Program-made: the position numbers and the translations under genes | Sequence record: PZ527900.1 | Reading direction: 5' to 3' (one strand) | Length of the DNA: 44,330 nt | Source: a phage | The notes under the pieces: generated by a model | The model's database searches: none | What the model was told of the DNA's origin: nothing | What the model saw: the letters and a program-made list of their open reading frames with translations, nothing else | Shown here: positions 1-44,229 of the stretch, piece after piece | Position numbering within the stretch: the stretch's first letter is position 1 | Layout: each line of letters starts with the position of its first letter

Positions 1-403
1 TATCTAACCTAGGTCGAGTGCGTAGTGCTAAGGGCGTGCTCAAGGAGTTCATTCAAGATAACGGATACGTTGCCGTGATGTTAGGTGCTGGTGTGCGTAA
101 ACTGGTACACCGCTTAGTGGCTGTAGCATTTGTAGCTAATCCAGAAGGGAACCAGAGGTTAATCATAAAGACCATGTGCGCCATCACAATATGGCAGTTA
201 ACCTTGAATGGGTTACACGACAAGAGAATATCGATCACTCAAACAACATTACTACCTTCCGTTTAAGAAACGAAATAACAGGTGAAGTTGTAGAAGGGCG
301 TAATTTGGCAGCCTTCGCTAAAGAGCGAGGTTTAATTTATCCCAATCTCAATAAAGTAAATACAGGTGTGCGTCGTTCGCATAAAGGATGGGTAAAAGCA
401 TGA
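1..403 (+). CDS. HNH homing endonuclease, continuation of the ORF that starts at 44233; reading frame broken by a 1-nt indel near 148-152 (ORF pieces 18-266 and 176-403)
   Basis: Frame 0 gives VSNLGRVRS...GYVAVML...VHRLVAVAFVANPEG; the +2 frame continues EVNHKDHVRHHNMAVNLEWVTRQENIDHS, a His-Asn-His motif. Neither frame alone gives a full-length protein. Confidence 0.6.
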
Positions 404-2621: not shown

Positions 2622-3305
2622 ATGTGTAAATTAGTATTGAATGTAGGTGACAAGGTTCGTAATGTAAACAAGTATTCCCCTTACAAGGGGGAGGTCGGTG
2701 TAGTAATCAATGAAGACAAAGATATTTACTATGTACGTTACCAACAAAGCCAGGCAGAACAAGGATATCTTAAACTTAGTGCTCACAAACATCTTACAAA
2801 GATTGAAGAACCAACACATCAATGCAAGTGTGTACATGATGAGATTTGCGATAAGTGTGCTAGCCAGATGCAGAAAATGGTATTGCATCACCACATGTAC
2901 AGAGGTGGTATTCAAACCTTAGCAGAGTATATGGCAGAAAGAAAAACCACACTCAAGAAGGAGCGCCGCAATGTAATCACTGGTAAGACTCAAAGTGAAA
3001 TGATTAAGCAGTGCGGTACTGCATTAGGTGTTACACAGTTTAACACCCGTGCTCTAGGTAAATCGACAGGACAAGCTATGGTAAAGATTGGTGAAGCTAT
3101 GATGCACCCAAATGTACCTGTGCGAATCGCGGATGTGGACCATGCAATCACAGAACATGGCACACCTCGTCATGTAGCTAATAAGAACTTTGCAGCTATA
3201 GTTAATCATATTATCAAGAAGCAAGGTTTACTTGGCTTTATTGTTAATGAAGCTCATCTAGTCTACTGCCCTATCGTTACTGAAGAAACCTACGTGAATA
3301 TCTAA
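2622..3305 (+). CDS. hypothetical protein (227 aa); Cys/His-rich middle segment
   Basis: ATG at 2622 has GGAG 7 nt upstream; the ORF-track start at 2565 lies inside a palindrome hairpin and is unlikely. Segment HQCKCVHDEICDKC suggests metal binding. Confidence 0.6.
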   Translation: MCKLVLNVGDKVRNVNKYSPYKGEVGVVINEDKDIYYVRYQQSQAEQGYLKLSAHKHLTKIEEPTHQCKCVHDEICDKCASQMQKMVLHHHMYRGGIQTLAEYMAERKTTLKKERRNVITGKTQSEMIKQCGTALGVTQFNTRALGKSTGQAMVKIGEAMMHPNVPVRIADVDHAITEHGTPRHVANKNFAAIVNHIIKKQGLLGFIVNEAHLVYCPIVTEETYVNI

Positions 3306-4010: not shown

Positions 4011-4215
4011 GCTAAGTAAGGTTTGCTCTTGCGGTAAAGGCTATCGTAGTCGTATTGATGGTAAGTGCGGACATTGCAGGTCTAAGAAAGAGGCTGCTTT
4101 GTTTGATAAGTACCACAATGAATTAGCATATAACTATCCTCATCTAACACCTAATTCTTTATTAGGGCTTGGTTATAGGGCTAAATACTTTGGGGCCATC
4201 TATGAAATCAATTGA
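3997..4215 (+). CDS. hypothetical small Cys-rich protein (72 aa)
   Basis: GGAG 7 nt upstream of ATG; CSCGKGYRSRIDGKCGHC looks like a zinc ribbon; overlaps neighbours by about 14 nt on each side. Confidence 0.4.
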   Translation: MKTIKLSKVCSCGKGYRSRIDGKCGHCRSKKEAALFDKYHNELAYNYPHLTPNSLLGLGYRAKYFGAIYEIN

Positions 4216-6748
4216 TTGGAAGAAGGAAGCAGAAGGCCGTATCCTTGTAATGGATGCGGAAGCTAAAGGTCTGCTTGACGCTATCCGCTATGGTCATCGT
4301 GAAGATGTACACATCATTTGCTGCATGGATTTGCTTACTACCGAGGAATTCTTATTCTTCGACCCTTATGAGATGCGTGACCCTGAAGCAAGGGAACGCC
4401 TGAAGGAGTGGGAAGGCCATCAAGATGGTGACTTAGTTGATGGTGTTAACTTCCTGAAGCACTGTGAAGCTATCGTGTCGCAAAACTTCCTAGGGTATGA
4501 CGGTCTTCTCTTTGAGAAAGCATTCCCTACTATCTGGAAGGGCTTTAACTATACCGAGAGGCGAGGCAAGGGCAGACTCCGCGCTGACCTGTGTCCTGTG
4601 CGAGTCATGGACACGCTGGTCATGAGCCGCCTGTTAAACCCAGACAGACGCCTTCCTCCTCAAGCATACGCCAAAGGTATGGGTAACGTCGCCCCTCACT
4701 CAATTGAAGCGCACGGCATCCGTATAGGCCGTTATAAGCCGGAGAATGAGGATTGGTCTAAGCTAACCGACCACATGGTTCACCGTGTACGTGAAGACGT
4801 GGCGATTGGTCGTGACCTTTTTCTCTGGCTATTTAACGGAGAATGGACGGAGCACAAACGCCGTGGCGTGAACAAACGTACTGGCCTAGGCATTGAGACT
4901 GCCTTCCACATGGAGTCCATTGTAGCGCTGGAGATGAGCCGTCAGGCCGAGCGCGGATTCCGTCTGGACATCGACAAAGCGTTAGCGCGATGCGAAGAAC
5001 TGGACGCTAAGATTGATGAGACAGTCGCAGCGTTCCGCCCACACATGCCTATGCGTATCAAGTCTAAACCTTTTAAACCGGAAGAAAAGAATGAAGTATG
5101 CCAACGCGCAAATGAGTATGGAGCTAGCAACAATATACCTACTGTCCTTGACCCCTCTCACTTTCTCCACGCAGAGAGACGAGGAGATCGCAAGACAGTA
5201 TGGAGTGTCACTACTAAGTCTGGTGATTGGTCGGCTAGTGTCAAGAAAGACTTTCCTCACCTTAGAGGAAACCGTAATGACACGCCAAGTATCAAGTGGG
5301 TCGGCGCTTACTCTCCCGTCACGTTTGAAGAGATTCCCTTGGGAAACCGTGACACCGTTAAGCAAGTGCTCTATGACTATGGCTGGAAAGGTGTGGAGTT
5401 CAACGATACAGAGCAAGCCTATCTTGATGAAAATGGTGTCCTACCTAAGCCTTGGAGTGGTAAGATAAATGAAAAGTCCCTTACTCTATGGCAAGAAAGA
5501 GCCGCACGTGAAGGTAAAACAGTCCCTGATTGGTGCTTGGGTATCGCTGCATGGTACATACTCGTATCCCGTCGTGGTCAGATACTCAACCGTGGTGACG
5601 TTGAAGCCTTCAACGAGAAAGGAACGTGGCCCTCTCAGGCTGGTGTACGAAAGTGTCGCGGCCTTGTACCTGTAGCATTTAACAAGGAGTTAGGAATCAA
5701 TGCGCAGCAATACTACGAGAGGTATGGGTGTTGGCCTACGTCTGACAAGGATGACGGAGAGTGGCGTGTGCCAGCTATTGCTATTAGCATTGGCACTTCT
5801 ACGTTCCGTATGCGTCATCGTAACGTGGTTAATATTCCTGCCCGTGGCTTGTATCCTTTACGTGATTTATTCATAGCAGGGAAAGGAAAGTTAATCCTTG
5901 GTTGTGATGGTGCAGGTCTTGAACTGCGTGTACTGTCTCACTTCATGAATGACCCTGAGTACCAAGATATTGTACTGCATGGTGATATCCATACTCATAA
6001 CCAGATGAAGGCCGGTCTTCCTAAGCGTGACATGGCGAAGACATTTATATATGCATTCCTCTATGGTTCTGGTATAGCTAACCTTGCAGCAGTATGTGGT
6101 GTTACTGAGGAAGAAATGAAGGAGGTTGTGGCAAGATTTGAGATTGAACTACCATCTCTTGCACGTCTTCGTGAAAATGTTATTGCACAAGGTAACAAGT
6201 TTGGCTACCTGCAAGCACCTGATGGACATTGGGGTCGCATCCGCATGTCTGGTGGTGAACTTAAAGAGCACACTATGCTTAACGTATTGCTACAGATGAC
6301 GGGTTCTTTGTGTATGAAATATGCATTGGTCAAGGCGTTTGCAGTGATGCGCAAGGAAGGTGTGGCTCTAGATAGCATGGGGAACCCTTGTGGTGTAGCT
6401 AACGTGCACGATGAGATTCAGATGGAAGTACCCGAAGATGAAGTCTTGTATCTTAACTACGACCTACCTTTCACCTTAGAGGGTTTTGAAACAGAGAAGG
6501 CTGCTGTGAAAGCAGTGTTCGATGCAGAGGAGAAACGCGTGCATGTGGACTCTGAGGGGCGCATGTGGTCTGCTGCTAACTTGGTTGAAGTGGATGCTGA
6601 TGCTGGTGTACTCCATTGCCAGCGTCGTTATCACCGTGCAGGGCATATCATTGCAGACGCCATGACTTGGGCTGGTCAGTATCTTAAGATGCGTTGCCCG
6701 ATGGCAGGCGAGTACAAGATTGGTGCAAGTTGGAAGGAGACACACTGA
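4202..6748 (+). CDS. DNA polymerase, family A (T7 gp5-like)
   Basis: Exo motif VMDAEAKGL; Pol I motif A LILGCDGAGLELRVLSHF; motif B RDMAKTFIYAFLYGSG; motif C VHDEIQMEV. Start set at the first in-frame ATG (MKSIDW...); the ORF-track start at 4169 is TTG. Confidence 0.9.
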   Translation: MKSIDWKKEAEGRILVMDAEAKGLLDAIRYGHREDVHIICCMDLLTTEEFLFFDPYEMRDPEARERLKEWEGHQDGDLVDGVNFLKHCEAIVSQNFLGYDGLLFEKAFPTIWKGFNYTERRGKGRLRADLCPVRVMDTLVMSRLLNPDRRLPPQAYAKGMGNVAPHSIEAHGIRIGRYKPENEDWSKLTDHMVHRVREDVAIGRDLFLWLFNGEWTEHKRRGVNKRTGLGIETAFHMESIVALEMSRQAERGFRLDIDKALARCEELDAKIDETVAAFRPHMPMRIKSKPFKPEEKNEVCQRANEYGASNNIPTVLDPSHFLHAERRGDRKTVWSVTTKSGDWSASVKKDFPHLRGNRNDTPSIKWVGAYSPVTFEEIPLGNRDTVKQVLYDYGWKGVEFNDTEQAYLDENGVLPKPWSGKINEKSLTLWQERAAREGKTVPDWCLGIAAWYILVSRRGQILNRGDVEAFNEKGTWPSQAGVRKCRGLVPVAFNKELGINAQQYYERYGCWPTSDKDDGEWRVPAIAISIGTSTFRMRHRNVVNIPARGLYPLRDLFIAGKGKLILGCDGAGLELRVLSHFMNDPEYQDIVLHGDIHTHNQMKAGLPKRDMAKTFIYAFLYGSGIANLAAVCGVTEEEMKEVVARFEIELPSLARLRENVIAQGNKFGYLQAPDGHWGRIRMSGGELKEHTMLNVLLQMTGSLCMKYALVKAFAVMRKEGVALDSMGNPCGVANVHDEIQMEVPEDEVLYLNYDLPFTLEGFETEKAAVKAVFDAEEKRVHVDSEGRMWSAANLVEVDADAGVLHCQRRYHRAGHIIADAMTWAGQYLKMRCPMAGEYKIGASWKETH

Positions 6749-6759
6749 GTTATACTCAA

Positions 6760-6780
6760 GGTCACTTAAGAGTGGCCTTT
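6760..6780 (+). terminator. weak hairpin plus T-tract after the DNA polymerase gene
   Basis: GGTCACTTAAGAGTGGCC (7-bp stem, 4-nt loop) followed by TTTAT; shares GAGTGGCCTTT with the post-RNAP terminator at 43781. Confidence 0.3.
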
Positions 6781-6814
6781 ATGAATAACTTATTCCTACT
6801 TATTTTGTCTAACA

Positions 6815-6840
6815 TGATTTACTGGACACTATAGAAGGAA
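6815..6840 (+). promoter_or_regulatory. phage RNAP promoter P1
   Basis: ATTTACTGGACACTATAGAAGG; one substituted block (ACTGG for AGGTG) relative to the SP6 promoter ATTTAGGTGACACTATAGAAG. Confidence 0.8.
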
Positions 6841-6903
6841 AGCCTAGGTAATCTAGGTTTATAAGGTAGTATAGGTAATTAAGTAAATATAGGAGATATA
6901 AAT

Positions 6904-10724: not shown

Positions 10725-11724
10725 GCTTCGCAGCTTGTACAAAGACTCCGAGGTACTTGATGCAATCGAGCAAGCTACCGACGAGAAAGGTAATGTTAAC
10801 TACAATGAGATGGCACGTATATTATCGTGTCACCCTGTGGGTAAGAAGATTACCCGCCAATTGGCTCGATACTGGCATGGTCAATTCAAGAAGACCAAGA
10901 AGAATGGTGATTATTACCAGACTCTTCTGCAAGAAGATAAGCGTATCAAAGAAGAGCGTAAGCTCAGGACTCCTGACCGCTACGAGGATTTGGCTATTGT
11001 ACCATTGCCTGACTCGCCTCATCGAAGTGTACTGGTAATACCTGATACTCATGCACCTTATGAGCACCCAGATGCTTTAGAATTCCTTGCAGCAGTTGCA
11101 GCACGTTATCGTCCAGACACTGTGGTTCATTTGGGGGATGAGGCGGATAAACATGCCTTGTCATTCCACGATTCGGACCCAAATCTAGATAGTGCTGGCA
11201 TGGAGTTAGAAAAGGCTCGTGTCTTCATGCACAAGTTGCACAAGATGTTCCCTGTGATGCGCCTGTGTCATTCTAATCACGGCTCTATGCACTTCCGTAA
11301 GGCGAGCGCCAAAGGTATCCCTGTGCAATATCTGCGTACCTACCGTGAAGTCTTCTTCCCAAATGGAGGTGGCGACCAGTGGGATTGGCAGCACACTCAT
11401 GTACTTGAATTGCCGAACGGTGAACAGGTAGCGTTCAAGCATCAACCTGCTGGCTCTGTCCTAGCAGATGCAGCACATGAGCGTATGAATCTAGTGTGTG
11501 GACATTTGCACGGTAAGATGTCTGTGGAGTATGCACGTAATACTCATGAGCAATACTGGGCGGTGCAGGGTGGCTGTCTGATTGATGAGTCGTCTCGTGC
11601 ATTCGCCTATGGTCGTGAGTCTAAGTACAAGCCAGCATTAGGTTGTGTGGTTATTCTGGATGGTGTGCCGCACATTGTCCCGATGCAAACCAATAGTGAC
11701 AATCGCTGGATTGGCAAGATTTAG
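10693..11724 (+). CDS. calcineurin-like metallophosphatase
   Basis: Motifs VIPDTHAPYEH (DxH), HLGDEADKH (GDxxD) and HSNHG (GNH-like). Start uncertain: ATG 10693 has a weak RBS, whereas in-frame TTG 10717 has AAGGAGG 6 nt upstream. Confidence 0.7.
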   Translation: MQERRRLKLGKLRSLYKDSEVLDAIEQATDEKGNVNYNEMARILSCHPVGKKITRQLARYWHGQFKKTKKNGDYYQTLLQEDKRIKEERKLRTPDRYEDLAIVPLPDSPHRSVLVIPDTHAPYEHPDALEFLAAVAARYRPDTVVHLGDEADKHALSFHDSDPNLDSAGMELEKARVFMHKLHKMFPVMRLCHSNHGSMHFRKASAKGIPVQYLRTYREVFFPNGGGDQWDWQHTHVLELPNGEQVAFKHQPAGSVLADAAHERMNLVCGHLHGKMSVEYARNTHEQYWAVQGGCLIDESSRAFAYGRESKYKPALGCVVILDGVPHIVPMQTNSDNRWIGKI

Positions 11725-11741
11725 GTGACACTATAGAACAA
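11719..11741 (+). promoter_or_regulatory. phage RNAP promoter P4 (identical to the SP6 promoter core)
   Basis: ATTTAGGTGACACTATAGAACA; followed by hairpin GGGCAGGTAGTGGCTTGCCC at the transcript 5' end. Confidence 0.8.
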
Positions 11742-13399: not shown

Positions 13400-13857
13400 T
13401 ACGTCCAGCTTCTTTCCTAGATATTCCTGAGATTATAAACCTTGGGAATAAATATGTGGAAGAGGAAGTCAAGGTGGTGGCCCATCACTCAGCCTCATGG
13501 AATGCAGAACAAAGCGCACATAACCTTTGTGTATCTCTTAGTAGAGAAGATTTATTCCTATGGGTGGCTGTAGATGAAGGGCAGATTGTAGGGTTCCTGT
13601 GGGCTGGCTATCACGAGTTGGCCCCTTGGACACCTGTAAGAGTTGCCTCTGACATTCTCTTTTACATTATACCAGAGAAGCGAGGGACACTGCTCGGTAT
13701 GCGTCTCATCAAGGCTCTTAAACAATGGGCCAATGAGAGTGAATGCTCTGAGGTTCGTCTATCTATCGCCTCTGGTATCAATGAAGAACGTGTCGGACGT
13801 ATGTATAAGCGACTTGGCTTTGAACCGTTTGGCACTGTGTATAACCTGAAGTTCTAA
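13396..13857 (+). CDS. GNAT-family N-acetyltransferase (putative)
   Basis: EKRGTLLGMRL...YKRLGFEP resembles the acetyl-CoA-binding motif A and C-terminal motif of GNAT enzymes. Confidence 0.55.
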   Translation: MIRPASFLDIPEIINLGNKYVEEEVKVVAHHSASWNAEQSAHNLCVSLSREDLFLWVAVDEGQIVGFLWAGYHELAPWTPVRVASDILFYIIPEKRGTLLGMRLIKALKQWANESECSEVRLSIASGINEERVGRMYKRLGFEPFGTVYNLKF

Positions 13858-13866
13858 GGAGATAAC

Positions 13867-14076
13867 ATGGGTGTTGTAAAGAAAGCATTTAAGGCTGTCG
13901 GTCTTGCTCAAGATGCACCACGTATTGAAGCTAAAGTCCCAGCGCAACAGCTTGAGCGTAAACCTGAGACAGAAGCTGAAGATATTCAGATTGGTGCAGG
14001 TGAGGATGACGCCACTGCATCTGCAAAAGGAAAACGGGGTCTTGTCCGTCCAGTAGCCTCTAGCTTGAAGGTGTAA
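13867..14076 (+). CDS. hypothetical small protein (69 aa) upstream of portal
   Basis: TAAGGAG RBS; same position as the small gp6.7/gp7.3-type virion proteins of T7. Confidence 0.5.
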   Translation: MGVVKKAFKAVGLAQDAPRIEAKVPAQQLERKPETEAEDIQIGAGEDDATASAKGKRGLVRPVASSLKV

Positions 14077-16627: not shown

Positions 16628-17830
16628 ATGTCTACACCGAATACTCTGACTAACGTTGCTGTATCCGCATCTGGTGAGGTTGACAGCCTTCTTATTGAGA
16701 AGTTTAATGGTAAGGTCAATGAGCAGTACATGAAAGGTGAGAACATTCTTTCCTACTTTGATGTACAGACCGTAACTGGTACAAACACTGTTAGTAATAA
16801 ATATTTAGGCGAGACTGAGTTGCAGGTGTTAGCACCGGGTCAGTCTCCTAATGCTACCCCGACTCAGGCAGATAAAAACCAGCTGGTAATTGATACCACT
16901 GTTATTGCCCGTAACACTGTGGCACATATCCATGATGTGCAAGGTGACATTGATAGCCTGAAACCTAAGCTGGCTATGAACCAAGCCAAGCAACTTAAGC
17001 GTCTGGAAGATCAGATGGCAATTCAGCAGATGCTGTTGGGTGGTATTGCTAACACCAAAGCAAAGCGCAATAAGCCTCGTGTAAAAGGTCATGGCTTCTC
17101 TATCAACGTCAACATTACTGAGAGCGAAGCACTTTCTAACCCACAGTATGTCATGGCTGCTGTGGAGTATGCTCTGGAACAACAGCTTGAGCAGGAAGTG
17201 GATATCTCTGATGTAGCTATTCTGATGCCATGGAAATTCTTCAATGCGCTGCGTGATGCAGATCGCATTGTAGATAAGACTTACACTATTAGTCAGTCTG
17301 GTAGTACGGTACAAGGCTTTGTATTGTCTTCTTACAATTGCCCTGTTATCCCGTCTAACCGTTTCCCAACCTTTGCACAAGGTGCAGCCCACCACCTGTT
17401 ATCTAATGCAGATAACGGGTATCGCTATGACCCGACAGCAGAGATGAATGGTGCAGTTGCTGTACTGTTTACAGCGGATGCGTTGTTAGTCGGTCGTACC
17501 ATTGATGTAACTGGCGACATCTTCTATGAGAAGAAAGAGAAGACCTACTACATCGATACCTTCATGGCAGAGGGTGCAATCCCAGACCGCTGGGAAGCTG
17601 TGTCTGTAGTTACAACCAAACGCAACACCACCACTGGTGTGGCTGAGGCTGGTGGTACTGATCACGCCACCGTTCTGTCTCGTGCACAGCGCAAGGCTGT
17701 ATACGTCAAGAGTGCAAACCCTACAGCAGCTGCAGTCGCTGCGAGCCTGCCTGCTGAAGACTTGGTTGCTGCCGTTCGTGCTGTAATTGCTAAGGACATT
17801 AAACCTGCTGCGATGACAACTGCTGTGTAA
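16628..17830 (+). CDS. major capsid protein
   Basis: 400 aa; own promoter and terminator; AAGGAG RBS; position between scaffold and tail tube genes. Confidence 0.9.
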   Translation: MSTPNTLTNVAVSASGEVDSLLIEKFNGKVNEQYMKGENILSYFDVQTVTGTNTVSNKYLGETELQVLAPGQSPNATPTQADKNQLVIDTTVIARNTVAHIHDVQGDIDSLKPKLAMNQAKQLKRLEDQMAIQQMLLGGIANTKAKRNKPRVKGHGFSINVNITESEALSNPQYVMAAVEYALEQQLEQEVDISDVAILMPWKFFNALRDADRIVDKTYTISQSGSTVQGFVLSSYNCPVIPSNRFPTFAQGAAHHLLSNADNGYRYDPTAEMNGAVAVLFTADALLVGRTIDVTGDIFYEKKEKTYYIDTFMAEGAIPDRWEAVSVVTTKRNTTTGVAEAGGTDHATVLSRAQRKAVYVKSANPTAAAVAASLPAEDLVAAVRAVIAKDIKPAAMTTAV

Positions 17831-17838
17831 TACCTATG

Positions 17839-17872
17839 CCCTATCTACCTTGCGTAGGTAGGGTTCTTTTTG
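17839..17872 (+). terminator. hairpin plus U-tract terminator after the capsid gene
   Basis: CCCTATCT...AGGTAGGG stem followed by TTCTTTTTG. Confidence 0.6.
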
Positions 17873-17884: not shown

Positions 17885-18622
17885 ATGCCTGTAATTAAAC
17901 AAACCAGTAAAGTCGGATCCCTGATGGAAGATGTGGCATTCCAGATTATTGATAGTAAACTTGAAGCGGTCAACTTGTGTATGCGAGCTATTGGTCGTGA
18001 GGGTGTGGATTCTCTCGACTCAGGCGATCTTGATGCAGAAGATGCAAGTAAGATGATTGATATTGTGTCCCAGAGATTTCAATATAATAAGGGTGGTGGT
18101 TGGTGGTTCAATCGCGAACCTAACTGGCAGCTTGCACCGGACACCAACGGCGAGGTGAACCTGCCCAATAATTGCCTTGCTGTGTTGCAGTGCTATGCTT
18201 TAGGTGAGAAGAAAGTACCTATGACTATGCGAGCAGGTAAGCTCTACTCTACATGGAGTCACACCTTTGATATGCGTAAGCATGTTAATGCCAATGGTAT
18301 GTTGCGTCTTACCTTACTTACCTTACTCCCGTATGAGCACCTACCAACCAGTGTGATGCAGGCAATTGCGTATCAGGCTGCTGTAGAGTTTATTGTGTCT
18401 AAGGATGCAGATAAGACTAAGCTGGCTACTGCACAGCAAATTGCTACGCAACTCCTTATGGATGTGCAATCAGAACAAATGTCGCAGAAGCGATTGAACA
18501 TGCTTGTACATAACCCCACCCAACGCCAGTTTGGTATCATGGCTGGTGGTTCACAGAATGTACCTGCTTACTCTCATTCACCTTATGACAGTTGGACACT
18601 TCGTCCGTGGGAGGACCGTTAA
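17885..18622 (+). CDS. tail tubular protein A (T7 gp11-like)
   Basis: TAGGAGGA RBS; AVNLCMRAIGREGVDSLD and GGGWWFN correspond to T7 gp11 segments as recalled. Confidence 0.85.
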   Translation: MPVIKQTSKVGSLMEDVAFQIIDSKLEAVNLCMRAIGREGVDSLDSGDLDAEDASKMIDIVSQRFQYNKGGGWWFNREPNWQLAPDTNGEVNLPNNCLAVLQCYALGEKKVPMTMRAGKLYSTWSHTFDMRKHVNANGMLRLTLLTLLPYEHLPTSVMQAIAYQAAVEFIVSKDADKTKLATAQQIATQLLMDVQSEQMSQKRLNMLVHNPTQRQFGIMAGGSQNVPAYSHSPYDSWTLRPWEDR

Positions 18623-21752: not shown

Positions 21753-24700
21753 TGGCAATTGAGCGGCAAGCAGTACAAGGTCTGCCACAAGTGCAGGCCA
21801 CTTCTCCTAATGTCATGACCTTTGCACCTCAGCGAGTTGGAGGTGTGGAGGCTGGCGTGGCTTCTACCTCCGGTAGTCGATTTATCGAAGATCTTATTCG
21901 AGCAGCGAGTAGTGTAGCTGATGTTACTACTGGTATCCTTAATCAGAAGATTGAGGAAGATAAGGTTGTTCAAATGGAACGGGCATATAATGGATTGATG
22001 CCTTCTGAGGATGCAACTCGTGGTGGCGCTCGTGCTAACATGCTTGTCAAAGCTCAACTGCTAGCTAATGATGAAGCAGCACGAATGAAAGACATGGCTA
22101 CTCGTTTCCAAGGAACGGATGACGAGTGGACACAACTCATGGTAGACTCTCGTAATGATATGCAGAACAAGCTGTTCCAGCAATACCCTGAGTTGCAAGG
22201 TGACAAAGATACAATGCGTATGGTCACTAACGTATTCCAAGAGCAGCAGCCTCAGATTTGGGCTACACGAACCCAGCATAAACTTGAACGGGAACAAGCT
22301 GATCGTGAAGATACCTTTGATGGAAGAGTGGCATCCACTTGGGATTCTAACCTTGACCCAGAAGCATCCGGTTATGCACTACAAGAGCGTATTCGTGAAG
22401 GTCTAACTCAAGGGTTATTGCCAGAGCAGATGCACAAGAAGTTAGTAGATAGGGCTATTTCTCTTGCACAAAGCGGTGATATCAGCATGGCTAAAGCCTT
22501 GAAGTATGTTAAGGATGACAAGGGTGTTTCTGTGTATGCGAAGAATCCGCAGCTTATCACAGCTATCACTAATGGTAATGCAGCTTGGGCTAGAAATAAT
22601 GTAGCTGATGTAACTCGTATGTCTTTCGAAGTTAAAGAGTCCTACCTTGCAGGTGATTTAACTGATGAAGAATTACTGGAGCGAGCACAACATATTAATA
22701 GTCTGACAGGTAACTCTGTGTTCTCTAACTCAGAACTTGAAGGGTTAATGCGCCAACGAGCGAAGCAGAATGCAGAGCTAGGTGCAATGCAAGATATGCG
22801 CCGTGAACTTTACTCGGACCGTATGATTGGTCTTCAAGGTAAATCGGATAAAGAAAAGAAAGCATATGTTGATCTTATCAAGCAAGACAGTCAACTCTAT
22901 GCAGACCAGCAGATTAAACAGCGGGGTCTTGACCCTTACAGCCAAGAAGCTGAAGCTATTCGTGGTGCTATAGAAGTTCAACGCCTCCAGTTTATGAACT
23001 CCAAAGGCTTAGTGGATGACACTTTTGAGTCTCGTATCAAAGCTATGGAATCCATGCTATCACCTGAGCACTTTGCTAAAGGTGAACCACAAGAGTTAAT
23101 GACTATTCGTCAATTGTGGGAGCAGTTACCAGAAGAGAGCCGAGGTGTCTTTGGTGACACAGTTAATGGCTATATGGATAACTACAACACTGCATTGCAG
23201 ATGGGTGAGACACCTTTGCAGGCTGCAAGGTTTGCCCGTGAAGCACAGCAGAAGTTCTCCCGTACTGAGAAAGAAACTAAGAAGTTCAACGCAGCTATTG
23301 GAGACGCCTTGGATACCGTGTCCGGTGCTGGGTGGTTTGATGGTAAGAAAGAGGTGTCTGACTTAGGTAAAGCTATTGCAGAAGAAGAATTACGAGCTAA
23401 GGCCAACATGTTGTGGTCCAGTGGTATGCGTAACATGGATTCCCTCAAGAAGGCTTTAATTACTTGGGGGAATAAACGCTACACTCAATCAGAGGATGCA
23501 AAGATCTCCGGTGGGTATTTTATCAAAGGTGATTATACCTCTGCATCTGATATGCTTATGTCCGTTGGGAAAGGGGTAAACCCTACTGATGTACCACTGG
23601 CTCTTGGTCGGTATGTAGAAGAACAGATGCCAGAGTTGAAGAAGGAACTTCAAGAGTGGGAGACTAAGAAGGACGTGTACATTGATTATAATGAACAGAA
23701 AGGCACTTTCGTAATTCGTGCTGGTGCCGCAGGTCGGCCTCTTTCTGGGGTAATCCCTATAACCTCCTTGGACACCACTTCCTTGTTGGATTCTGCTTAC
23801 AAGAAGAAAGTAGAAGAACGAGATAAAGGTGAATATGTACATCCATATCGTACAGATATTGGCACACAAGAGCCTATGCCTGCTAAACCAACTGCCAAAG
23901 ATATTGGTAAGTTTGGACTAGCTAACTTCCTCATGTCTTCTGCTTTCGCCTCTGGTGAGAGTCTCCCTTCTAACTTCGAAATTAACTATCGAGGAAATAT
24001 GCAACAATTCTATGATAAATTGGCTATGGATGAGAATAAAGACAAAGTTGGCTTTAATAGTGCAACTGGTACTTTTACTCCATACAAAGATGCTCACGGG
24101 GAATCTATCGGCTACGGTCATTTCTTGACGGAGGAAGAGAAGCGGAACGGGTACATTAAGATAGGAGATGAACTAGTCCCATATCGAGGGTCTATGTCTC
24201 AGCTTACAGAGAGCAAAGCTCGTGCTCTTATGGAGCAAGATGCTAAGAAGCATGTGCCCCCTACTCGTGACTGGAAGATTCCGTTTGACCAGATGCACCC
24301 TGCACAGCAACGTGGCTTGATGGATTTAACCTACAATTTAGGTAAGGGTGGAATCCAGAACTCACCGCGTGCTCTTGCTGCATTCAAAGCTGGTAAACTT
24401 ACGGAAGGTTTTATCGAAATGCTGGGCACTGCATCAAGTGAAGGTAAGCGTATTCCGGGCCTACTGAAGCGACGAGCCGAGGCTTACAACATGGCATCTG
24501 CTGGTGGTGTACCAAAGATTACCGAAGTAGAGACTCGTGAGGATGGTTCTATGTGGGTTAAGTTTGGTGGACCCATGCCAGCAGGCTCTGTCTCTGCGTG
24601 GACTCATAAACGTATTGGTGCGGATGGTTGGTATCAGGTTTATGAGGCTGCACCTACTAAGCTGGCTAAAGGTGCCAAAGTAGGTAAAGTTAAGTTGTAG
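21752..24700 (+). CDS. internal virion protein with lysozyme-like segment
   Basis: 982 aa; C-terminal PYKDAHGESIGYGHFLT resembles the T4 lysozyme YKDTEGYYTIGIGHLLT region. Confidence 0.8.
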   Translation: MAIERQAVQGLPQVQATSPNVMTFAPQRVGGVEAGVASTSGSRFIEDLIRAASSVADVTTGILNQKIEEDKVVQMERAYNGLMPSEDATRGGARANMLVKAQLLANDEAARMKDMATRFQGTDDEWTQLMVDSRNDMQNKLFQQYPELQGDKDTMRMVTNVFQEQQPQIWATRTQHKLEREQADREDTFDGRVASTWDSNLDPEASGYALQERIREGLTQGLLPEQMHKKLVDRAISLAQSGDISMAKALKYVKDDKGVSVYAKNPQLITAITNGNAAWARNNVADVTRMSFEVKESYLAGDLTDEELLERAQHINSLTGNSVFSNSELEGLMRQRAKQNAELGAMQDMRRELYSDRMIGLQGKSDKEKKAYVDLIKQDSQLYADQQIKQRGLDPYSQEAEAIRGAIEVQRLQFMNSKGLVDDTFESRIKAMESMLSPEHFAKGEPQELMTIRQLWEQLPEESRGVFGDTVNGYMDNYNTALQMGETPLQAARFAREAQQKFSRTEKETKKFNAAIGDALDTVSGAGWFDGKKEVSDLGKAIAEEELRAKANMLWSSGMRNMDSLKKALITWGNKRYTQSEDAKISGGYFIKGDYTSASDMLMSVGKGVNPTDVPLALGRYVEEQMPELKKELQEWETKKDVYIDYNEQKGTFVIRAGAAGRPLSGVIPITSLDTTSLLDSAYKKKVEERDKGEYVHPYRTDIGTQEPMPAKPTAKDIGKFGLANFLMSSAFASGESLPSNFEINYRGNMQQFYDKLAMDENKDKVGFNSATGTFTPYKDAHGESIGYGHFLTEEEKRNGYIKIGDELVPYRGSMSQLTESKARALMEQDAKKHVPPTRDWKIPFDQMHPAQQRGLMDLTYNLGKGGIQNSPRALAAFKAGKLTEGFIEMLGTASSEGKRIPGLLKRRAEAYNMASAGGVPKITEVETREDGSMWVKFGGPMPAGSVSAWTHKRIGADGWYQVYEAAPTKLAKGAKVGKVKL

Positions 24701-24717
24701 TACCTAACTCAAGGCTT

Positions 24718-24733
24718 GTCTCACATGTGAGAC
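24718..24733. repeat. 16-bp palindrome GTCTCACATGTGAGAC (copy 3 of 6)
   Basis: Perfect palindrome; extended stem GGCTTGTCTCACATGTGAGACAGGTC followed by TTTAT. Confidence 0.8.
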
Positions 24734-24764
24734 AGGTCTTTATGATAGGCACTATGGAGGAACT

Positions 24765-29115: not shown

Positions 29116-29401
29116 ACATGCAGCTACAGAAGATGAGGTTGGCATCCTACATGGTGCTATTACCAAGATGTTCAACAAGAAAGCACAGGCAATACTGGAC
29201 ACTATAGAAGGGGACCCAGATGCAGCACTAGCTTTGGTATCCGGTAAGGATATTGGTGCCATGTGTAAGTGGGTTCTTGACAATGGAATTACAGCCACAC
29301 CTGCTGCACAGCAGGAAGAATCCAAGCTGTCTAAGCGCCTCAAGGCTATCCGAGAGGCATCCAGTGGCAAGATTATTCATTTTACAAAAGAGGATAACTA
29401 A
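29099..29401 (+). CDS. terminase small subunit (by position)
   Basis: 100-aa ORF directly upstream of the large terminase; GTG start with GGAGG upstream. Contains promoter P6. Confidence 0.6.
   Translation: MSVHNKHAATEDEVGILHGAITKMFNKKAQAILDTIEGDPDAALALVSGKDIGAMCKWVLDNGITATPAAQQEESKLSKRLKAIREASSGKIIHFTKEDN
29188..29214 (+). promoter_or_regulatory. phage RNAP promoter P6, intragenic
   Basis: AATACTGGACACTATAGAAGGGG inside the small terminase gene; the codons encode ILDTIEGD. Confidence 0.6.
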
Positions 29402-31299
29402 TGGCTAAGGCAAGAGAATCACAAGCGGAGGCTCTTGCCAGATGGGAGATGCTACAGGAATTACAGCAGACCTTTCCTTATACAGCGGAAGGTTTGCTCC
29501 TCTTTGCAGACACAGTTATTCATAACTTGATTGCAGGCAACCCTCATCTGATTCGTATGCAGGCTGATATATTGAAGTTCCTATTCTATGGACACAAGTA
29601 TCGCCTCATCGAAGCGCCCCGTGGTATCGCTAAAACTACATTATCAGCAATCTATACAGTCTTCCGTATCATCCATGAACCACATAAGCGTATCATGGTT
29701 GTATCTCAAAACGCCAAGCGAGCAGAGGAAATCGCTGGCTGGGTGGTGAAAATCTTCCGTGGCCTAGACTTCCTTGAGTTTATGCTACCGGATATCTACG
29801 CAGGGGACCGTGCCTCTGTTAAGGCATTTGAGATTCATTACACCCTACGTGGCAGTGACAAGTCGCCTTCTGTATCTTGTTACTCGATCGAAGCAGGTAT
29901 GCAGGGTGCTCGTGCTGATATTATCTTAGCGGACGATGTTGAGTCGATGCAGAATGCTCGTACCGCCGCAGGCCGTGCATTGCTTGAGGAGTTGACCAAG
30001 GAGTTTGAATCTATCAACCAGTTTGGTGATATTATCTACCTTGGTACCCCTCAGAACGTAAACTCTATCTACAACAACCTGCCTGCTCGTGGCTACTCGG
30101 TTCGCATCTGGACTGCACGTTACCCTTCAGTGGAGCAGGAGCAATGTTATGGTGACTTCCTTGCACCTATGATTGTGCAAGATATGAAGGACAACCCAGC
30201 ACTTCGCTCAGGTTATGGTTTGGACGGTAACAGCGGAGCACCTTGTGCCCCTGAAATGTATGATGATGACGTCCTTATTGAGAAGGAAATCTCGCAGGGT
30301 GCTGCTAAGTTCCAGCTCCAATTCATGCTTAACACTCGCATGATGGATGCTGACCGCTACCCTCTACGGCTGAATAACCTTATCTTTACCTCATTCGGTA
30401 CGGAGGAAGTCCCTGTGATGCCTACATGGAGCAATGACTCTATTAACATCATTGGCGATGCACCTAAGTATGGCAACAAGCCTACAGACTTCATGTATAG
30501 ACCTGTGGCCCGTCCCTATGAATGGGGTGCTGTTACTCGCAAGATCATGTATATTGACCCAGCGGGTGGCGGTAAGAACGGAGATGAAACGGGTGTAGCG
30601 ATTGTCTTCCTGCACGGAACATTCATTTATGTGTATCAGTGCTTCGGTGTACCGGGCGGATACCGAGAATCGTCCCTGAATCGCATTGTGCAGGCCGCAA
30701 AGCAGGCAGGGGTTAAAGAGGTATTCATTGAGAAGAACTTTGGTCATGGCGCGTTTGAGGCCGTAATTAAGCCGTACTTTGAACGGGAGTGGCCTGTCAC
30801 TCTGGAGGAGGATTACGCCACAGGACAGAAGGAATTGCGTATCATTGAGACGCTGGAGCCACTCATGGCGGCGCACAGGCTCATCTTTAATGCCGAGATG
30901 GTCAAGTCTGACCTTGAGTCAGTACAGCACTATCCACTTGAACTACGCATGTCCTACAGCCTTTTCAATCAAATGTCGAACATCACGATTGAGAAGAACA
31001 GCCTCCGGCATGATGACCGCTTAGACGCGCTGTATGGCGCTATACGGCAATTAACTTCTCAGATAGACTATGACGAGGTTACACGGATTAATCGCCTCAG
31101 AGCGCAGGAGATGCGCGATTACATCCAAGCCATGAACACACCTCACCTACGCAGGGCAATGCTCTATGGGGATTATGGAACTGAGCGAAGAGTGACCAAC
31201 ACCTCTGTAGCGATGCAGCAGCGGGTTTACGGTCGGAACTACCGGAATAAGTCCTCCAATAGAAATACAATTTCTGCAAGGATTTCAAGGACTTATTAA
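29401..31299 (+). CDS. terminase large subunit (T7 gp19-like)
   Basis: 632 aa; ATPase P-loop-like PRGIAKTT and Walker B ADIILADDVES; C-terminal nuclease region. Confidence 0.9.
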   Translation: MAKARESQAEALARWEMLQELQQTFPYTAEGLLLFADTVIHNLIAGNPHLIRMQADILKFLFYGHKYRLIEAPRGIAKTTLSAIYTVFRIIHEPHKRIMVVSQNAKRAEEIAGWVVKIFRGLDFLEFMLPDIYAGDRASVKAFEIHYTLRGSDKSPSVSCYSIEAGMQGARADIILADDVESMQNARTAAGRALLEELTKEFESINQFGDIIYLGTPQNVNSIYNNLPARGYSVRIWTARYPSVEQEQCYGDFLAPMIVQDMKDNPALRSGYGLDGNSGAPCAPEMYDDDVLIEKEISQGAAKFQLQFMLNTRMMDADRYPLRLNNLIFTSFGTEEVPVMPTWSNDSINIIGDAPKYGNKPTDFMYRPVARPYEWGAVTRKIMYIDPAGGGKNGDETGVAIVFLHGTFIYVYQCFGVPGGYRESSLNRIVQAAKQAGVKEVFIEKNFGHGAFEAVIKPYFEREWPVTLEEDYATGQKELRIIETLEPLMAAHRLIFNAEMVKSDLESVQHYPLELRMSYSLFNQMSNITIEKNSLRHDDRLDALYGAIRQLTSQIDYDEVTRINRLRAQEMRDYIQAMNTPHLRRAMLYGDYGTERRVTNTSVAMQQRVYGRNYRNKSSNRNTISARISRTY

Positions 31300-31320
31300 T
31301 TACTGGACACTATAGAAGGA
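31296..31320 (+). promoter_or_regulatory. phage RNAP promoter P7
   Basis: TAATTACTGGACACTATAGAAGGA overlapping the terminase stop codon. Confidence 0.75.
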
Positions 31321-31455
31321 AGGCCAAGAGAATAAGAGAATAATAAGGATAATATAGGTTAACCTAGGTTATATAGGTATGCCTTAGTATGGGTGTACTC
31401 CTGTACACCCTATTCCTTACTTCCTTACTATAGTTAACTATGAATAGGAGATATG

Positions 31456-37496: not shown

Positions 37497-37872
37497 ATGG
37501 AAACGTGGGTAACTATTCCTGGCTACCCACGGTATCAAGTGCCTACTCATGGACGTGTCAAATCGCTCATTGGTAATCACAAGATACTGAAGCCGGGCAA
37601 GTCAAAGAGTGGGTATTTAAATGTAGTTCTTAGTAACGAGGGAGGCAAGAGGACATTCCGTGTGCATCGCTTGGTTGCACTATGTCACTTGCCTAACCCT
37701 CATAACCTTCCCCTTAGTGAACCACAAGGATGAAGACAAGGCACATAATCATGTAGACAACTTAGAGTGGTGTACTGAAGAGTACAATCTAAAGTATTCA
37801 CGTGACTATGACAGGTCTTCTCTTAGTGTAACCCAAGGGAAGAAGAAGGTATGGCTTCCAGTTGACCTGTAA
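37497..37872 (+). CDS. second HNH homing endonuclease; frame broken by +1 C in a C4 run near 37710 (ORF pieces 37497-37733 and 37660-37872)
   Basis: AAGGAG RBS; N-part WVTIPGYPRYQV...HRLVALCHLPNP, C-part VNHKDEDKAHNHVDNLEWCTEEYN in the +1 frame. Confidence 0.6.
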
Positions 37873-38249
37873 CATTTAGGTAACAAAGTCAAAATTTTGA
37901 TATAGGCGTGTGTGGGGTGTCTCGGCCTCGGCCTCGCCGGGTTGTCCCCGTATGGGGTCGCTCGGCGGTTGGCTTGGGAATTGGTCTAGGCTGGTCCGTC
38001 TTCGACGGGTAGGCCGAGGCTTGCCTTGTACTCGCTTAGTGGTACACAAGGAGGGTGCCTAGGAAGCGCTAGGGCACGCCTTAGTATTGGACAAGGTGAT
38101 TGCCTTAGTGCAACCGCTTAGGGCTTACACAGGGCCATTCTGGGCCTTTATGGGCTATTGACAGGGTGGGCGGGTGTGGGCTATCTGTTCGTTTCGCCTA
38201 GCGGCTCAACTCAGCTCACTCCGCTTGCGCTACGTTCACTCGCTCACGT

Positions 38250-38380
38250 GTACCTTAGGTTATTCCTTGATGGATAGCCTAGGTTGGCCTTAGTTGATTG
38301 CCTTGGTATCAACCTTAGTTCTTATCTTAGTAACAACTTAGTAATGTACCTTAGTTAGTCTTAGTGTCAGACCTTAGTGA
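38250..38380. repeat. array of short direct repeats (C/T)CTTAGT at roughly 10-13 bp spacing
   Basis: At least nine copies in about 120 bp, with more scattered between 38079 and 38600; analogous to the CCTAAAG repeats at the T7 left end. Confidence 0.6.
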
Positions 38381-38524: not shown

Positions 38525-38540
38525 GTCTAACATGTGAGAC
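38525..38540. repeat. 16-bp palindrome variant GTCTAACATGTGAGAC (copy 4 of 6, one mismatch)
   Basis: Lies about 35 nt upstream of the candidate host promoter. Confidence 0.5.
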
Positions 38541-43862: not shown

Positions 43863-43887
43863 ATATTTACCGGACACTATAGGAGAG
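43863..43887 (+). promoter_or_regulatory. phage RNAP promoter P10
   Basis: ATTTACCGGACACTATAGGAGAG. Confidence 0.7.
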
Positions 43888-44021
43888 AACCGTCGGAGAC
43901 GGGAGAGAGAAGGGAAGGTAAAGGATATAAAGGAAGTAATAAGTATTAAAGGTTATATAGGTTTACCTAGGAATACCTATTACCTTCTTCCTTCCTCTTA
44001 TTACTACTTAGAGGAAGGGCA
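43888..44021. other. AT-rich, purine-then-pyrimidine skewed segment between tandem promoters; candidate primary replication origin
   Basis: GA-rich left half (GGGAGAGAGAAGGGAAGGTAAAGG...), CT-rich right half (ACCTTCTTCCTTCCTCTTATTAC); contains AGGTTATATAGGT. Confidence 0.35.
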
Positions 44022-44050: not shown

Positions 44051-44076
44051 GTATTTACCGGACAGTATAGATAAGA
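44051..44076 (+). promoter_or_regulatory. phage RNAP promoter P11 (variant CAGTATAG)
   Basis: TATTTACCGGACAGTATAGATAAG, with C to G at -5 relative to the consensus. Confidence 0.5.
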
Positions 44077-44100: not shown

Positions 44101-44229
44101 ATGCGTAACTTTGAGAAGATGACCCGTAAAGCTAAGCGTTTCGACATGGAAGAGGGGCAGACGAAAGGCAAGAAGCTGAATAAACCTGTCCGTGACCGTG
44201 CATCTAAACGCGCAGCGTGGGAGTTCTAA
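44101..44229 (+). CDS. T7 gene 1.1-like small basic protein (42 aa)
   Basis: GGAG 8 nt upstream; MRNFEKMTRKAKRF...KGKKLNKPVRDRASKRAAWEF matches the size, position after tandem promoters, and sequence pattern of T7 gp1.1 as recalled. Confidence 0.6.
   Translation: MRNFEKMTRKAKRFDMEEGQTKGKKLNKPVRDRASKRAAWEF

What the first reader, a model, noticed from the sequence alone, without database searches (positions are those of the whole stretch)
6840..6903. Promoter-proximal leaders share an AGGT(T/A)RTATAGGT element and CCTAGGT motifs
The leaders after P1 (6840-6903), P7 (31320-31452) and P10 (43888-44021) are AT-rich, carry CCTAGGT and TATAGGT motifs, and the latter two share the 13-mer AGGTTATATAGGT. 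The P7 leader also contains the hairpin GGGTGTAC-TCCT-GTACACCC (31391-31410). These may be RNase III-type processing sites, translational control elements, or secondary origins.
Basis: seen in the sequence. Interest (0 to 1): 0.45.

Follow-up and report, generated by a model that had tools for sequence, protein, structure and literature searches.

The report
Phased repeat arrays after phage promoters
Three stretches just downstream of phage-polymerase promoters in this SP6-like phage carry a strand-specific array of 'TAGGTA' repeats spaced 9-10 bases apart, conserved at the same places across the whole phage subfamily; they most likely mark transcription-started replication origins like those of T7, but that is inferred from position and composition, not shown.

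Summary
The window is a circularly permuted genome of a K1E/K1-5-like (SP6-group) podophage. The CCTAGGT and TATAGGT motifs are units of a 9-10-nt periodic array, roughly (A/C)TAGGTA(A/G)T. The array lies on the + strand only and starts at +1 of three of the twelve phage promoters. Arrays occur nowhere else in the window. They occur at the syntenic leaders in every Molineuxvirinae relative examined. More distant relatives keep the architecture and the period but use other unit sequences.

The shared element is not a T7-type RNase III site. A covariance model that recovers six further T7 sites finds none in the leaders, but does find one at 6746-6797, just upstream of P1.

Two of the three sites match T7's replication promoters. 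P10/P11 lie between the RNA polymerase gene and the gp1.1 homologue, like phi1.1A/B. P7 follows the large terminase gene, like phiOR. The three arrays are also the three least stable DNA duplex segments of the genome.

Best reading (about 0.35): transcription-activated origins. Rivals are a 5'-UTR RNA module, protein-bound iterons, and neutral slippage. The conserved period and its locking to +1 remain unexplained.

The parts
6817..6834 (+). Phage promoter P1 (ATTTACTGGACACTATAG; +1 = 6834)
6834..6903 (+). g15 leader. The array has AGG cores at +3, +13, +22, +31, +40 and +58; the last is the Shine-Dalgarno AGGAG. The ATG is at 6904. Predicted unstructured.
31298..31315 (+). Phage promoter P7, directly after the large terminase gene (+1 = 31315)
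31315..31381 (+). g41 leader. Purine-rich, C-poor array in phase from +1, with canonical TAGGT units at 31344-31381.
31382..31388 (+). Conserved CCTTAGT block (AGGTAYGCCYTAGT in all genera) between the array and the hairpin
31391..31410 (+). GC hairpin GGGTGTAC-TCCT-GTACACCC; the stem is kept by compensatory changes across genera
31411..31432 (+). Pyrimidine-rich (G-free) tract that can pair with the 5' purine-rich start of the leader or with the SD region
43865..43882 (+). Phage promoter P10, the first of a tandem pair after the RNA polymerase gene (+1 = 43882)
43890..43902 (+). Small 5' hairpin CCGTC-GGA-GACGG; compensatory changes in relatives (CCATC/GATGG, CCTTC/GAAGG, CCCTC/GAGGG)
43903..43971 (+). 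g8 leader purine-rich array (AGG cores at 43911, 43916, 43922, 31, 50, 59, 69). No C in 43901-43960. Ends at the CCTAGG centre.
43972..44008 (+). Pyrimidine-rich arm complementary to the array (18-nt arms, 83% complementary)
44053..44070 (+). Phage promoter P11 (variant GGACAGTATAG), the second of the tandem pair
44101..44229 (+). Gene 8, homologue of T7 gp1.1 (Pfam Phage_1_1, E 1e-15); anchors the synteny with the T7 primary origin
6746..6797 (+). Adjacent to the array, not part of it: T7-type RNase III-like hairpin (70.6 bits), 25 nt upstream of P1

Best explanation
The three leaders are copies of one promoter-coupled module. It consists of a phage promoter, then from +1 a purine-rich, C-poor, easily melted array of 9-10-nt units with an AGGTA core. 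In the two long copies a hairpin and a pyrimidine-rich tract follow.

The most likely function is that of T7's 'replication promoters'. Transcription by the phage RNA polymerase opens this weakest part of the duplex. The purine-rich transcript stays annealed to its pyrimidine-rich template and is handed to the phage DNA polymerase as a primer. The helicase-primase loads on the displaced array strand.

On this reading P10/P11 would be the primary origin, and P7 and the clade-specific P1 would be secondary origins.

Shown here: the array, its conservation, its position, its composition and its duplex instability.

Inferred: any role in replication, the R-loop step and the hand-off.
For: 1. Synteny.
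- P10/P11 are tandem promoters between the RNA polymerase gene and a gp1.1 homologue, exactly as T7 phi1.1A/phi1.1B are.
- P7 directly follows the large terminase gene, as T7 phiOR does.
- In T7, phi1.1A/B are the primary origins and phiOR and phi6.5 are secondary origins. A phiOR plasmid origin depends on T7 RNA polymerase and on loss of RNase H (PMC8373140).

2. Duplex stability. The three arrays are ranks 1, 2 and 3 among the least stable 50-bp duplex windows of the whole genome, z +3.4 to +3.8. They include the two C-poorest 60-nt windows. In eight genomes they are always less stable than average, z +1.9 to +4.2.

3. Anchoring. The array is tied to the transcription start (AGG at +3, +13, +22, +32 and so on), not to the ribosome-binding site, which lies 0, about 70 or about 150 nt away.

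4. Strand specificity and conservation.
- In ten genomes, all arrays of at least 4 units are on the + strand and in these leaders.
- 24 of 25 and 27 of 30 close loci are positive, against 5 of 104 distant loci.

5. Copy number varies among close relatives (about 2, 4 and 6.5 copies of a 27-nt unit). This fits an element whose function tolerates changes in length.

6. T7 phiOR also starts purine-rich and then turns AT-rich.
Against: - There are no replication data of any kind.
- The T7 origin model needs only a promoter and AT-rich DNA. It does not predict a conserved AGGTA core, a 9-10-nt period, or phase locking to +1.
- In the Erwinia and Klebsiella F4M1D-type phages the arrays are only mildly AT-rich (GC 0.35-0.43, ranks 12-95). 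The motif, not AT content, is what is conserved.
- The computed advantage of RNA:DNA hybrid over DNA duplex is top-ranked only at the start of the g8 leader in the window. Elsewhere it is unremarkable, and T7's own origins are not outliers by this measure either. The parameters were recalled from memory.
- The leaders contain hairpins with compensatory changes, which points to RNA-level constraints.
- In the g15 leader the array merges with the Shine-Dalgarno sequence.
- GC skew is uninformative.
Confidence: 0.35

Rival explanations
1. The module acts as RNA, as a 5'-UTR cassette. The 5'-terminal purine-rich segment pairs with the downstream pyrimidine tract. This sequesters the 5' end and forms a 15-20-bp helix, which could be an RNase III substrate with the topology of T7 R1.1. 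The unstructured AGGUA array and the hairpins would tune mRNA stability, processing or translation of the first gene.
For: - The small 5' hairpin in the g8 leader and the GC hairpin in the g41 leader are kept by compensatory changes.
- g8 leaders fold better than dinucleotide shuffles in 5 of 7 genomes (z -2.3 to -4.2). g41 leaders do so in some (PM85 -3.0, F4M1D -3.7).
- MFE structures pair +1..+20 with the CU tract in the window, PM85, K44 and phD2B.
- In T7 the R1.1 hairpin lies between phi1.1A and phi1.1B, with a purine-rich 5' arm starting at +1 and a CCUUCUUCC 3' arm.
- Promoter-proximal RNase III sites are known in T7 (PMC6938266).
- In the g15 leader the last unit is the SD itself (ATAGGAGAT).
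Against: - The T7-type RNase III model finds no site in any leader, even with filters off.
- g15 leaders have no partner arm and are unstructured.
- RNAalifold supports only the two small hairpins, not the long helix.
- Purine/pyrimidine arms pair in many registers by composition alone, so pairing is weak evidence.
- Arrays can be far longer than the pyrimidine tract (about 150 nt against about 12 nt in phiEa1H).
- AGGT is strongly preferred over better anti-SD matches such as GGAG, which argues against ribosome recruitment.
- The window's own leaders fold no better than shuffles (z -0.5 to -1.8).
Confidence: 0.3
2. The units are iterons: binding sites for an unidentified protein, phage-encoded and co-evolving with the lineage. 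The protein coats the DNA, or the displaced strand or the RNA, just downstream of three promoters. It would act as a timing operator or roadblock, or as a loader for the replisome.
For: - Regular direct repeats, 3 to 16 per site, in one orientation.
- The period of 9-10 nt is kept while the unit sequence changes between lineages: AGGTA type, AGAGCGTACT, AGAGAGTAT, AAGAAATAAT, AGTAGCCCT. This is what a co-evolving protein-site pair would give.
- The phase relative to +1 is fixed.
- The core does not covary with the promoter specificity region (-12 to -8), which differs between genera.
Against: - No candidate protein was found. The genes next to the arrays (g8, g15, g41/g42) have no DNA-binding annotation.
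- Information outside the 5-6-nt core is low.
- A spacing of about 9.5 nt does not match the B-DNA helical repeat.
- Individual cores mutate freely among close strains.
- Phase conservation may simply reflect common descent of the leaders.
Confidence: 0.15
3. The array has no function of its own. The leader is a slippage-prone, low-complexity spacer that travels with a duplicated promoter cassette. Its look reflects reiteration of the promoter's initiation region (TATAG plus the initial transcribed sequence) and a bias against coding-like sequence.
For: - Recent tandem expansions occur with identical 27-nt copies, and copy number varies between close relatives.
- Units resemble promoter positions -4..+5. 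In phiEa1H the unit is clearly a copy of TATAG plus the initial transcribed sequence.
- The core is built from sequences rare in enterobacterial coding DNA (CTAG, AGG, ATA). This last point is my own knowledge, not tested here.
Against: - The core, period, strand and phase are conserved across genera whose proteins are only 59-83% identical, with RNAP and TerL at 42-55% identity for the wider architecture.
- Arrays are confined to 3 of the 12 promoters.
- A neutral microsatellite would not keep AGGTA from Escherichia to Erwinia phages.
Confidence: 0.1

Closest known systems
T7 primary origin (phi1.1A/phi1.1B plus AT-rich region) and secondary origin phiOR
   Same: - Tandem phage promoters between the RNA polymerase gene and gene 1.1.
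- A further promoter right after the large terminase gene.
- Downstream DNA that is AT-rich and easily melted.
- No initiator protein is needed in T7.
(PMC8373140)
   Different: - Here the easily melted region lies between the two promoters, not after both.
- It is a phased 9-10-nt array with a conserved AGGTA core.
- T7 has only loose CTTAAG repeats and no AGGTA array.
- Origin activity has not been tested here.
T7 RNase III processing sites (R1.1, R1.3 and others)
   Same: - Promoter-proximal position.
- In the two long leaders, a purine-rich 5' arm starting near +1 that pairs with a CU-rich 3' arm, placed between tandem promoters like R1.1.
   Different: - The leaders lack the conserved upper stem AAGGUC...GAGUGGCCUU and score nothing with the model.
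- The g15 leader has no second arm.
- The real T7-type hairpin is at 6746-6797, outside the leaders.
Iteron arrays of plasmid and phage origins and partition sites (for example lambda ori, R1 parC)
   Same: Several direct repeats at regular spacing in one orientation, next to an easily melted region.
   Different: - The units are much shorter (5-6 informative bases).
- The period of about 9.5 nt is below a helical turn.
- No cognate protein is known.
- The array lies inside a transcribed leader.
This comparison rests on my own knowledge.
Translational enhancer and stabiliser leaders (T7 gene 10 epsilon; STAB-SD type elements)
   Same: - A/U-rich leader carrying short SD-like cores (AGGU, UAAGG).
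- In the g15 leader the array abuts the true SD.
   Different: - Two of the three arrays are 70-150 nt from the ribosome-binding site.
- The leader of the major capsid gene has no array.
- AGGT is preferred over stronger SD variants.
Short repeat arrays next to the T7 terminal repeats (SRL/SRR, CCTAAAG type; my own knowledge)
   Same: This phage group also has a short repeat (CCYTAGT) clustered on the + strand near the left end, and one copy of it sits in every g41 leader.
   Different: - The motif differs and the spacing is irregular (10-35 nt).
- The function is also unknown.

Membership tests
T7-type RNase III processing site | Hairpin of about 50-60 nt with two stems around an internal loop and the conserved AAGGUC...GAGUGGCCUU upper stem | tested here: not met
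   Covariance model R1 recovers six T7 sites that were not in its training set. I identified these sites from my own knowledge of the T7 map. The model gives no match in 6834-6903, 31315-31452 or 43882-44052 at E<=10 with filters off. It does match 6746-6797 (70.6 bits), which is outside the leader.
T7-type RNase III processing site | Stable double-stranded RNA of about two helical turns | tested here: inconclusive
   g15 leaders are unstructured. g8 and g41 leaders can form purine/pyrimidine helices (z down to -4.2 in relatives, but -0.5 to -1.8 in the window). There is no covariation support for the long helix.
T7-type RNase III processing site | Cleavage by host RNase III | not testable with these tools
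   Needs RNA end mapping in rnc+ and rnc- hosts.
T7-type transcription-activated replication origin | Phage RNA polymerase promoter reading into the element | tested here: met
   Promoters at 6817, 31298 and 43865 (plus 44053) match the consensus with 0-1 mismatch.
T7-type transcription-activated replication origin | AT-rich, easily melted DNA immediately downstream of the promoter | tested here: met
   Ranks 1-3 among the least stable 50-bp windows of the genome. Weaker but positive in other genera.
T7-type transcription-activated replication origin | Genomic position equivalent to phi1.1A/B (RNAP-gene 1.1) and phiOR (after the large terminase gene) | tested here: met
   Gene order. Gene 8 is a Pfam Phage_1_1 member.
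T7-type transcription-activated replication origin | Primase recognition site on the displaced strand | tested here: inconclusive
   The SP6 primase site is reported as 5'-GCA-3' (my own knowledge). A GGGCAGAC block follows the g8 leader in the Escherichia and Salmonella phages but not in the Klebsiella or Proteus relatives.
T7-type transcription-activated replication origin | DNA synthesis actually initiates there | not testable with these tools
   Needs marker-frequency analysis, origin-plasmid assays or in vitro initiation.
Iteron array bound by a specific protein | Three or more direct repeats at regular spacing | tested here: met
   3-16 units. Spacing counts were 9 nt: 89, 10 nt: 116, 8 nt: 18 and 11 nt: 10, in 45 distinct arrays.
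Iteron array bound by a specific protein | A cognate binding protein | not tested
   No candidate was identified. Neighbouring genes have no nucleic-acid-binding annotation.
Translational enhancer / SD-like standby site | Placed next to the ribosome-binding site it serves | tested here: not met
   True for 1 of 3 leaders (g15). The array ends about 70 nt (g41) and about 150 nt (g8, with a promoter in between) from the SD.

The most novel reading that the evidence does not exclude
The promoter-phased 9-10-nt units are a new kind of origin iteron for phages that use a single-subunit RNA polymerase. Each unit pairs a GG anchor with an A/U spacer and mimics the promoter's initiation region. The array would then set periodic points where short transcripts are released, or re-anneal, as primers. 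Alternatively it is read by a still unknown, lineage-co-evolving factor that couples promoter firing to replisome loading.
Probability: 0.15. Interest if true: 0.75.

Novelty: new variant of a known kind. Interest (0 to 1): 0.5.

Why it matters
SP6-group phages supply a standard laboratory RNA polymerase and are used as therapeutic and capsule-specific phages. As far as I could check, their replication origins have never been mapped.

This analysis gives three precise, conserved and easily mutated candidate elements, and a clear prediction for the primary origin (43.9 kb, between the RNA polymerase gene and gene 8).

It also shows that a promoter-locked 9-10-nt periodicity persists in relatives whose repeat sequence has changed completely. 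No current model of T7-type origins, RNase III sites or leaders explains that regularity.

If the arrays prove to be origin elements, they would refine how transcription primes replication in this large phage family. If they act as RNA, they define a widespread leader module.

Tried and rejected
- Rfam scan of the whole window: no family at gathering threshold.
- GC skew: positive throughout and dominated by the single coding strand, so it gives no origin signal.
- RNA:DNA against DNA:DNA stability profile (R-loop proneness): only the start of the g8 leader is an outlier, and T7's known origins are not, so the measure does not discriminate.
- RNA polymerase decoy: rejected because the array core stays AGGTA while the promoter specificity region (-12 to -8) differs between genera.
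- CsrA, Hfq or TRAP-like RNA-binding motifs: considered from memory. The GGA or A-R-N patterns are not consistently present, so I did not pursue them.
- DnaA box resemblance in the phiEa1H unit (TTATCCAGG): not shared by other genera.
- Recombination-linker idea: similarity breakpoints with relatives fall inside gene 41 or upstream of P1, not at the arrays.
- Autoregulation by the adjacent gene: g8, g15 and g41/g42 show no DNA-binding family.
- Literature: nine searches found no description of these arrays. The two genome papers most likely to mention them are not held: Dobbins 2004 (PMC374404) and Scholl 2004. Prior description therefore cannot be excluded.

Full report
**What the window is.** The window is about 90% identical over most of its length to K1E/K1-5-type phages (Vectrevirus, Molineuxvirinae, the SP6 group). 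Its first 55 nt repeat its last 55 nt, so it is a circularly permuted assembly of a 44,275-bp genome. All genes run on the + strand.
- Landmarks are the primase-helicase gene (388-2388), DNA polymerase (4169-6748), major capsid (16628-17830), large terminase (29401-31299) and RNA polymerase (41145-43772).
- Gene 8 (44101-44229) is a Pfam Phage_1_1 member, that is, a homologue of T7 gp1.1.
- Twelve phage promoters match ATTTACYGGACASTATAG.
A twelfth promoter, P11, lies at 44053.

**Checking the observation.**
- The degenerate 13-mer AGGTWRTATAGGT occurs three times in the genome, once in each leader, against 0.01 expected.
- CCTAGGT is enriched (16 against 5.4 expected). Two of the 16 are the assembly overlap.
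- TATAGGT is not enriched overall (6 against 5.7), but four of its six copies are in the leaders.
- The hairpin at 31391-31410 is real.

**What the motifs are.** Splitting the leaders before each AGG shows that the motifs are units of a periodic array, for example ctaggtaat ctaggttta taaggtagt ataggtaat.
- With a core of [ACT][ACT]AGG[TA] at 8-11-nt spacing, arrays of three or more units occur in the window only at 6844, 31344 and 43948, and never on the - strand.
- Random Markov-1 sequence gave 0.125 such arrays, and none with four units.
- In 45 distinct arrays from relatives, the spacing is 9 nt (89 cases) or 10 nt (116), and rarely 8 (18) or 11 (10).
- The consensus is about (A/C)TAGGTA(A/G)T, with little information outside TAGGTA.
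- Only 3 of the 12 promoters have an array. The other leaders are short and mostly carry a simple hairpin.

**Conservation.** I compared nine complete relatives: K1-5, K1E, R4596, SP6, Proteus PM85, Klebsiella K44PH129C1 and F4M1D, Lelliottia phD2B and Erwinia phiEa1H.
- In these genomes every array of four or more units lies on the + strand in one of the same three syntenic leaders.
- The leaders after the RNA polymerase gene and after the large terminase gene carry arrays in all of them. The leader after the DNA polymerase gene carries one only in the SP6/K1-5/K44/phD2B clade.
- Among IMG/VR contigs, 24 of 25 loci with an RNA polymerase C-terminus at 59% identity or more have an array of at least three units. 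So do 27 of 30 loci with terminase at 63% identity or more.
- Only 5 of 104 more distant loci do, and T7 has none.
- Copy number varies between close relatives. A 27-nt triple unit is present about 2, 4 and 6.5 times in three Erwinia phages.

**Architecture of the three leaders.**
- g41 leader: promoter; +1 GAAGGAGGCC; array; a conserved block AGGTAYGCCYTAGT; a GC-rich hairpin; a G-free pyrimidine tract; SD. The hairpin stem changes by compensatory substitutions: GGGTGTAC/GTACACCC, GGGAGGTA/TACCTCCC, GGGTACTC/GAGTACCC, CCCCTCT/AGAGGGG.
- g8 leader: promoter; a small hairpin CCGUC-GGA-GACGG; array ending at a CCTAGG centre; a pyrimidine-rich arm complementary to the array; a 16-bp palindrome; the second promoter; gene 8. 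The small hairpin covaries as CCAUC/GAUGG, CCUUC/GAAGG and CCCUC/GAGGG.
- g15 leader: the array runs straight into the SD, whose context ATAGGAGAT looks like one more unit.

**Period and phase.**
- The AGG cores sit at almost the same distances from +1 in all leaders and genera. The positions are +3, +13, +22, +32, +42, +52 and +61 in the g15 and g41 leaders, and +30, +40, +50, +59, +68, +78 and +87 in the g8 leaders. These are two samplings of one lattice of about 9.6 nt. Common descent of the leaders may account for part of this.
- More distant relatives (terminase 46-55% identical, including the Vibrio phi-A318 contig) keep the same layout after the terminase gene. The layout is promoter, purine-rich C-poor tandem array, hairpin, pyrimidine tract and SD, sometimes with a second promoter.
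- Their unit sequences differ: AGAGCGTACT, AGAGAGTAT, AAGAAATAAT, AGTAGCCCT, TCCTAGTAGC. The periods are again 9 or 10, or multiples of these.
- In each lineage the unit resembles the promoter's own initiation region (TATAG plus the first transcribed bases). In phiEa1H the unit is plainly a copy of it.
- The array core does not follow the promoter's specificity region (-12 to -8), which differs between genera.

**Is it an RNase III site?**
- The window's leaders fold no better than shuffled sequence (z -0.9 to -1.4 with the tool; -0.5 to -1.8 in my runs).
- g15 leaders are essentially unstructured in four genomes.
- g8 leaders fold significantly in five of seven genomes (z -2.3 to -4.2). g41 leaders do so in some. 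In these structures the purine-rich 5' part pairs with the pyrimidine tract.
- Consensus folding supports only the two small hairpins.
- While reading T7 for comparison, I found that window 6746-6797, just upstream of P1, aligns with T7 R1.1 and R1.3. The invariant positions are AAGGTC...GAGTGGCCTT, and it folds into the same two-stem shape.
- A covariance model built from these four sequences recovered T7 hits at 1429-1483, 18503-18578, 13857-13905, 36818-36871, 856-903 and 3102-3153. From my knowledge of the T7 map these are R0.5, R6.5, R4.7, R18.5, R0.3 and R1, none of which was in the training set.
- In the window, with filters off, the model finds 6746-6797 (70.6 bits) and weak candidates at 39250-39301 and 24699-24758. 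It finds nothing in the three leaders.
- The shared element is therefore not a T7-type RNase III site. Another kind of double-stranded substrate in the two long leaders is not excluded.

**Why origins are the leading reading.**
- In T7, replication starts at phi1.1A/phi1.1B and, if these are deleted, at secondary origins such as phiOR and phi6.5. Every T7 origin needs a phage promoter, and a phiOR plasmid origin works through T7 RNA polymerase when RNase H is removed (PMC8373140).
- The T7 record places phi1.1A and phi1.1B between gene 1 and gene 1.1, and phiOR just after gene 19. P10/P11 and P7 occupy exactly these positions.
- The three arrays are the first, second and third least stable 50-bp duplex segments of the whole genome. 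They include its two C-poorest 60-nt windows. In the other genera they are less extreme but always on the unstable side.
- The array is tied to the promoter, not to the ribosome-binding site.
- Against this reading, AT-richness is not what is conserved, and the T7 model does not call for a motif, a period or a phase.
- An RNA:DNA hybrid-stability profile did not single out the arrays, or T7's own origins. GC skew is uninformative.

**Verdict.**
- The finding is a real, subfamily-wide, promoter-locked repeat module.
- I put transcription-activated origin function at about 0.35, an RNA leader role at about 0.30, protein-bound iterons at about 0.15, and neutral slippage at about 0.10.
- None of these explains the conserved 9-10-nt period.
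- I found no description of the arrays in the searchable literature. I could not read the two original SP6/K1-5 genome papers, so prior mention cannot be excluded.

Noticed in passing
window 6746-6797: T7-type RNase III-like hairpin right after the DNA polymerase stop codon and 25 nt upstream of P1. It aligns with T7 R1.1 and R1.3 (AAGGTC...GAGTGGCCTT invariant) and has the same two-stem fold, z -3.1. It is conserved in SP6, K1-5, K1E and R4596.
   Followed up: yes
window 999, 2567, 8528, 24718, 38525, 43845, 44032: The 16-bp palindrome GTCTCACRTGTGAGAC occurs seven times against 0.04 expected. Three copies sit 5-15 nt upstream of promoters (8559, 43865, 44053). Relatives carry GTCCAACGTGTTGGAC or GTCTCACACGTGAGAC at the same places, so the symmetry is kept. 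It could be an operator, a hairpin stop for the phage polymerase, or the upper stem of a processing site (24699-24758 gives a weak RNase III model hit).
   Followed up: partly
window 38079-38526 (also 31382): CCYTAGT repeats are clustered on the + strand near the presumed left genome end (7 copies), with one copy in the g41 leader. The same pattern is seen in K1-5, K1E, SP6, PM85 and K44PH129C1. It recalls the short repeats next to the T7 terminal repeat.
   Followed up: partly
window 1-55 and 44276-44330: The first 55 nt are identical to the last 55 nt. This is an assembly overlap of a circularly permuted genome, so motif counts in these stretches are duplicated.
   Followed up: yes
window 11719-11736: One promoter has the exact SP6 consensus ATTTAGGTGACACTATAG, whereas the others are of the K1-5 type ATTTACTGGACACTATAG.
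   Followed up: no
window 43780-43803 and 17838-17868: Two hairpin-plus-T-run terminators. One follows the RNA polymerase gene directly and is probably the early terminator for the host polymerase. The other follows the major capsid gene, in the position of T7 Tphi.
   Followed up: no
window 44233 through the window end to about 250; also 37497-37733: Two HNH/homing-endonuclease-like ORFs. The first (102 aa, with the EGYEVSNLGRVRS motif) lies between gene 8 and the primase-helicase gene and is present in only a few relatives (LL11, Mt1B1_P10, BP12B).
   Followed up: partly
window 39250-39301 and 24699-24758: Weak matches to the T7-type RNase III model (17.5 and 17.3 bits, E about 0.04-0.05). 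The second lies in the same intergenic position as stronger hits in SP6 (39.9 bits), PM85 (36.9) and K44PH129C1 (24).
   Followed up: partly
L120 71-246, L008 40650-40791, L119: In Erwinia phages the g41 array is a perfect 27-nt tandem repeat (GTCTATAGGTAGGCCCAGGTTATCCAG) with about 2, 4 and 6.5 copies in three close relatives, so it behaves as a variable-number repeat.
   Followed up: partly
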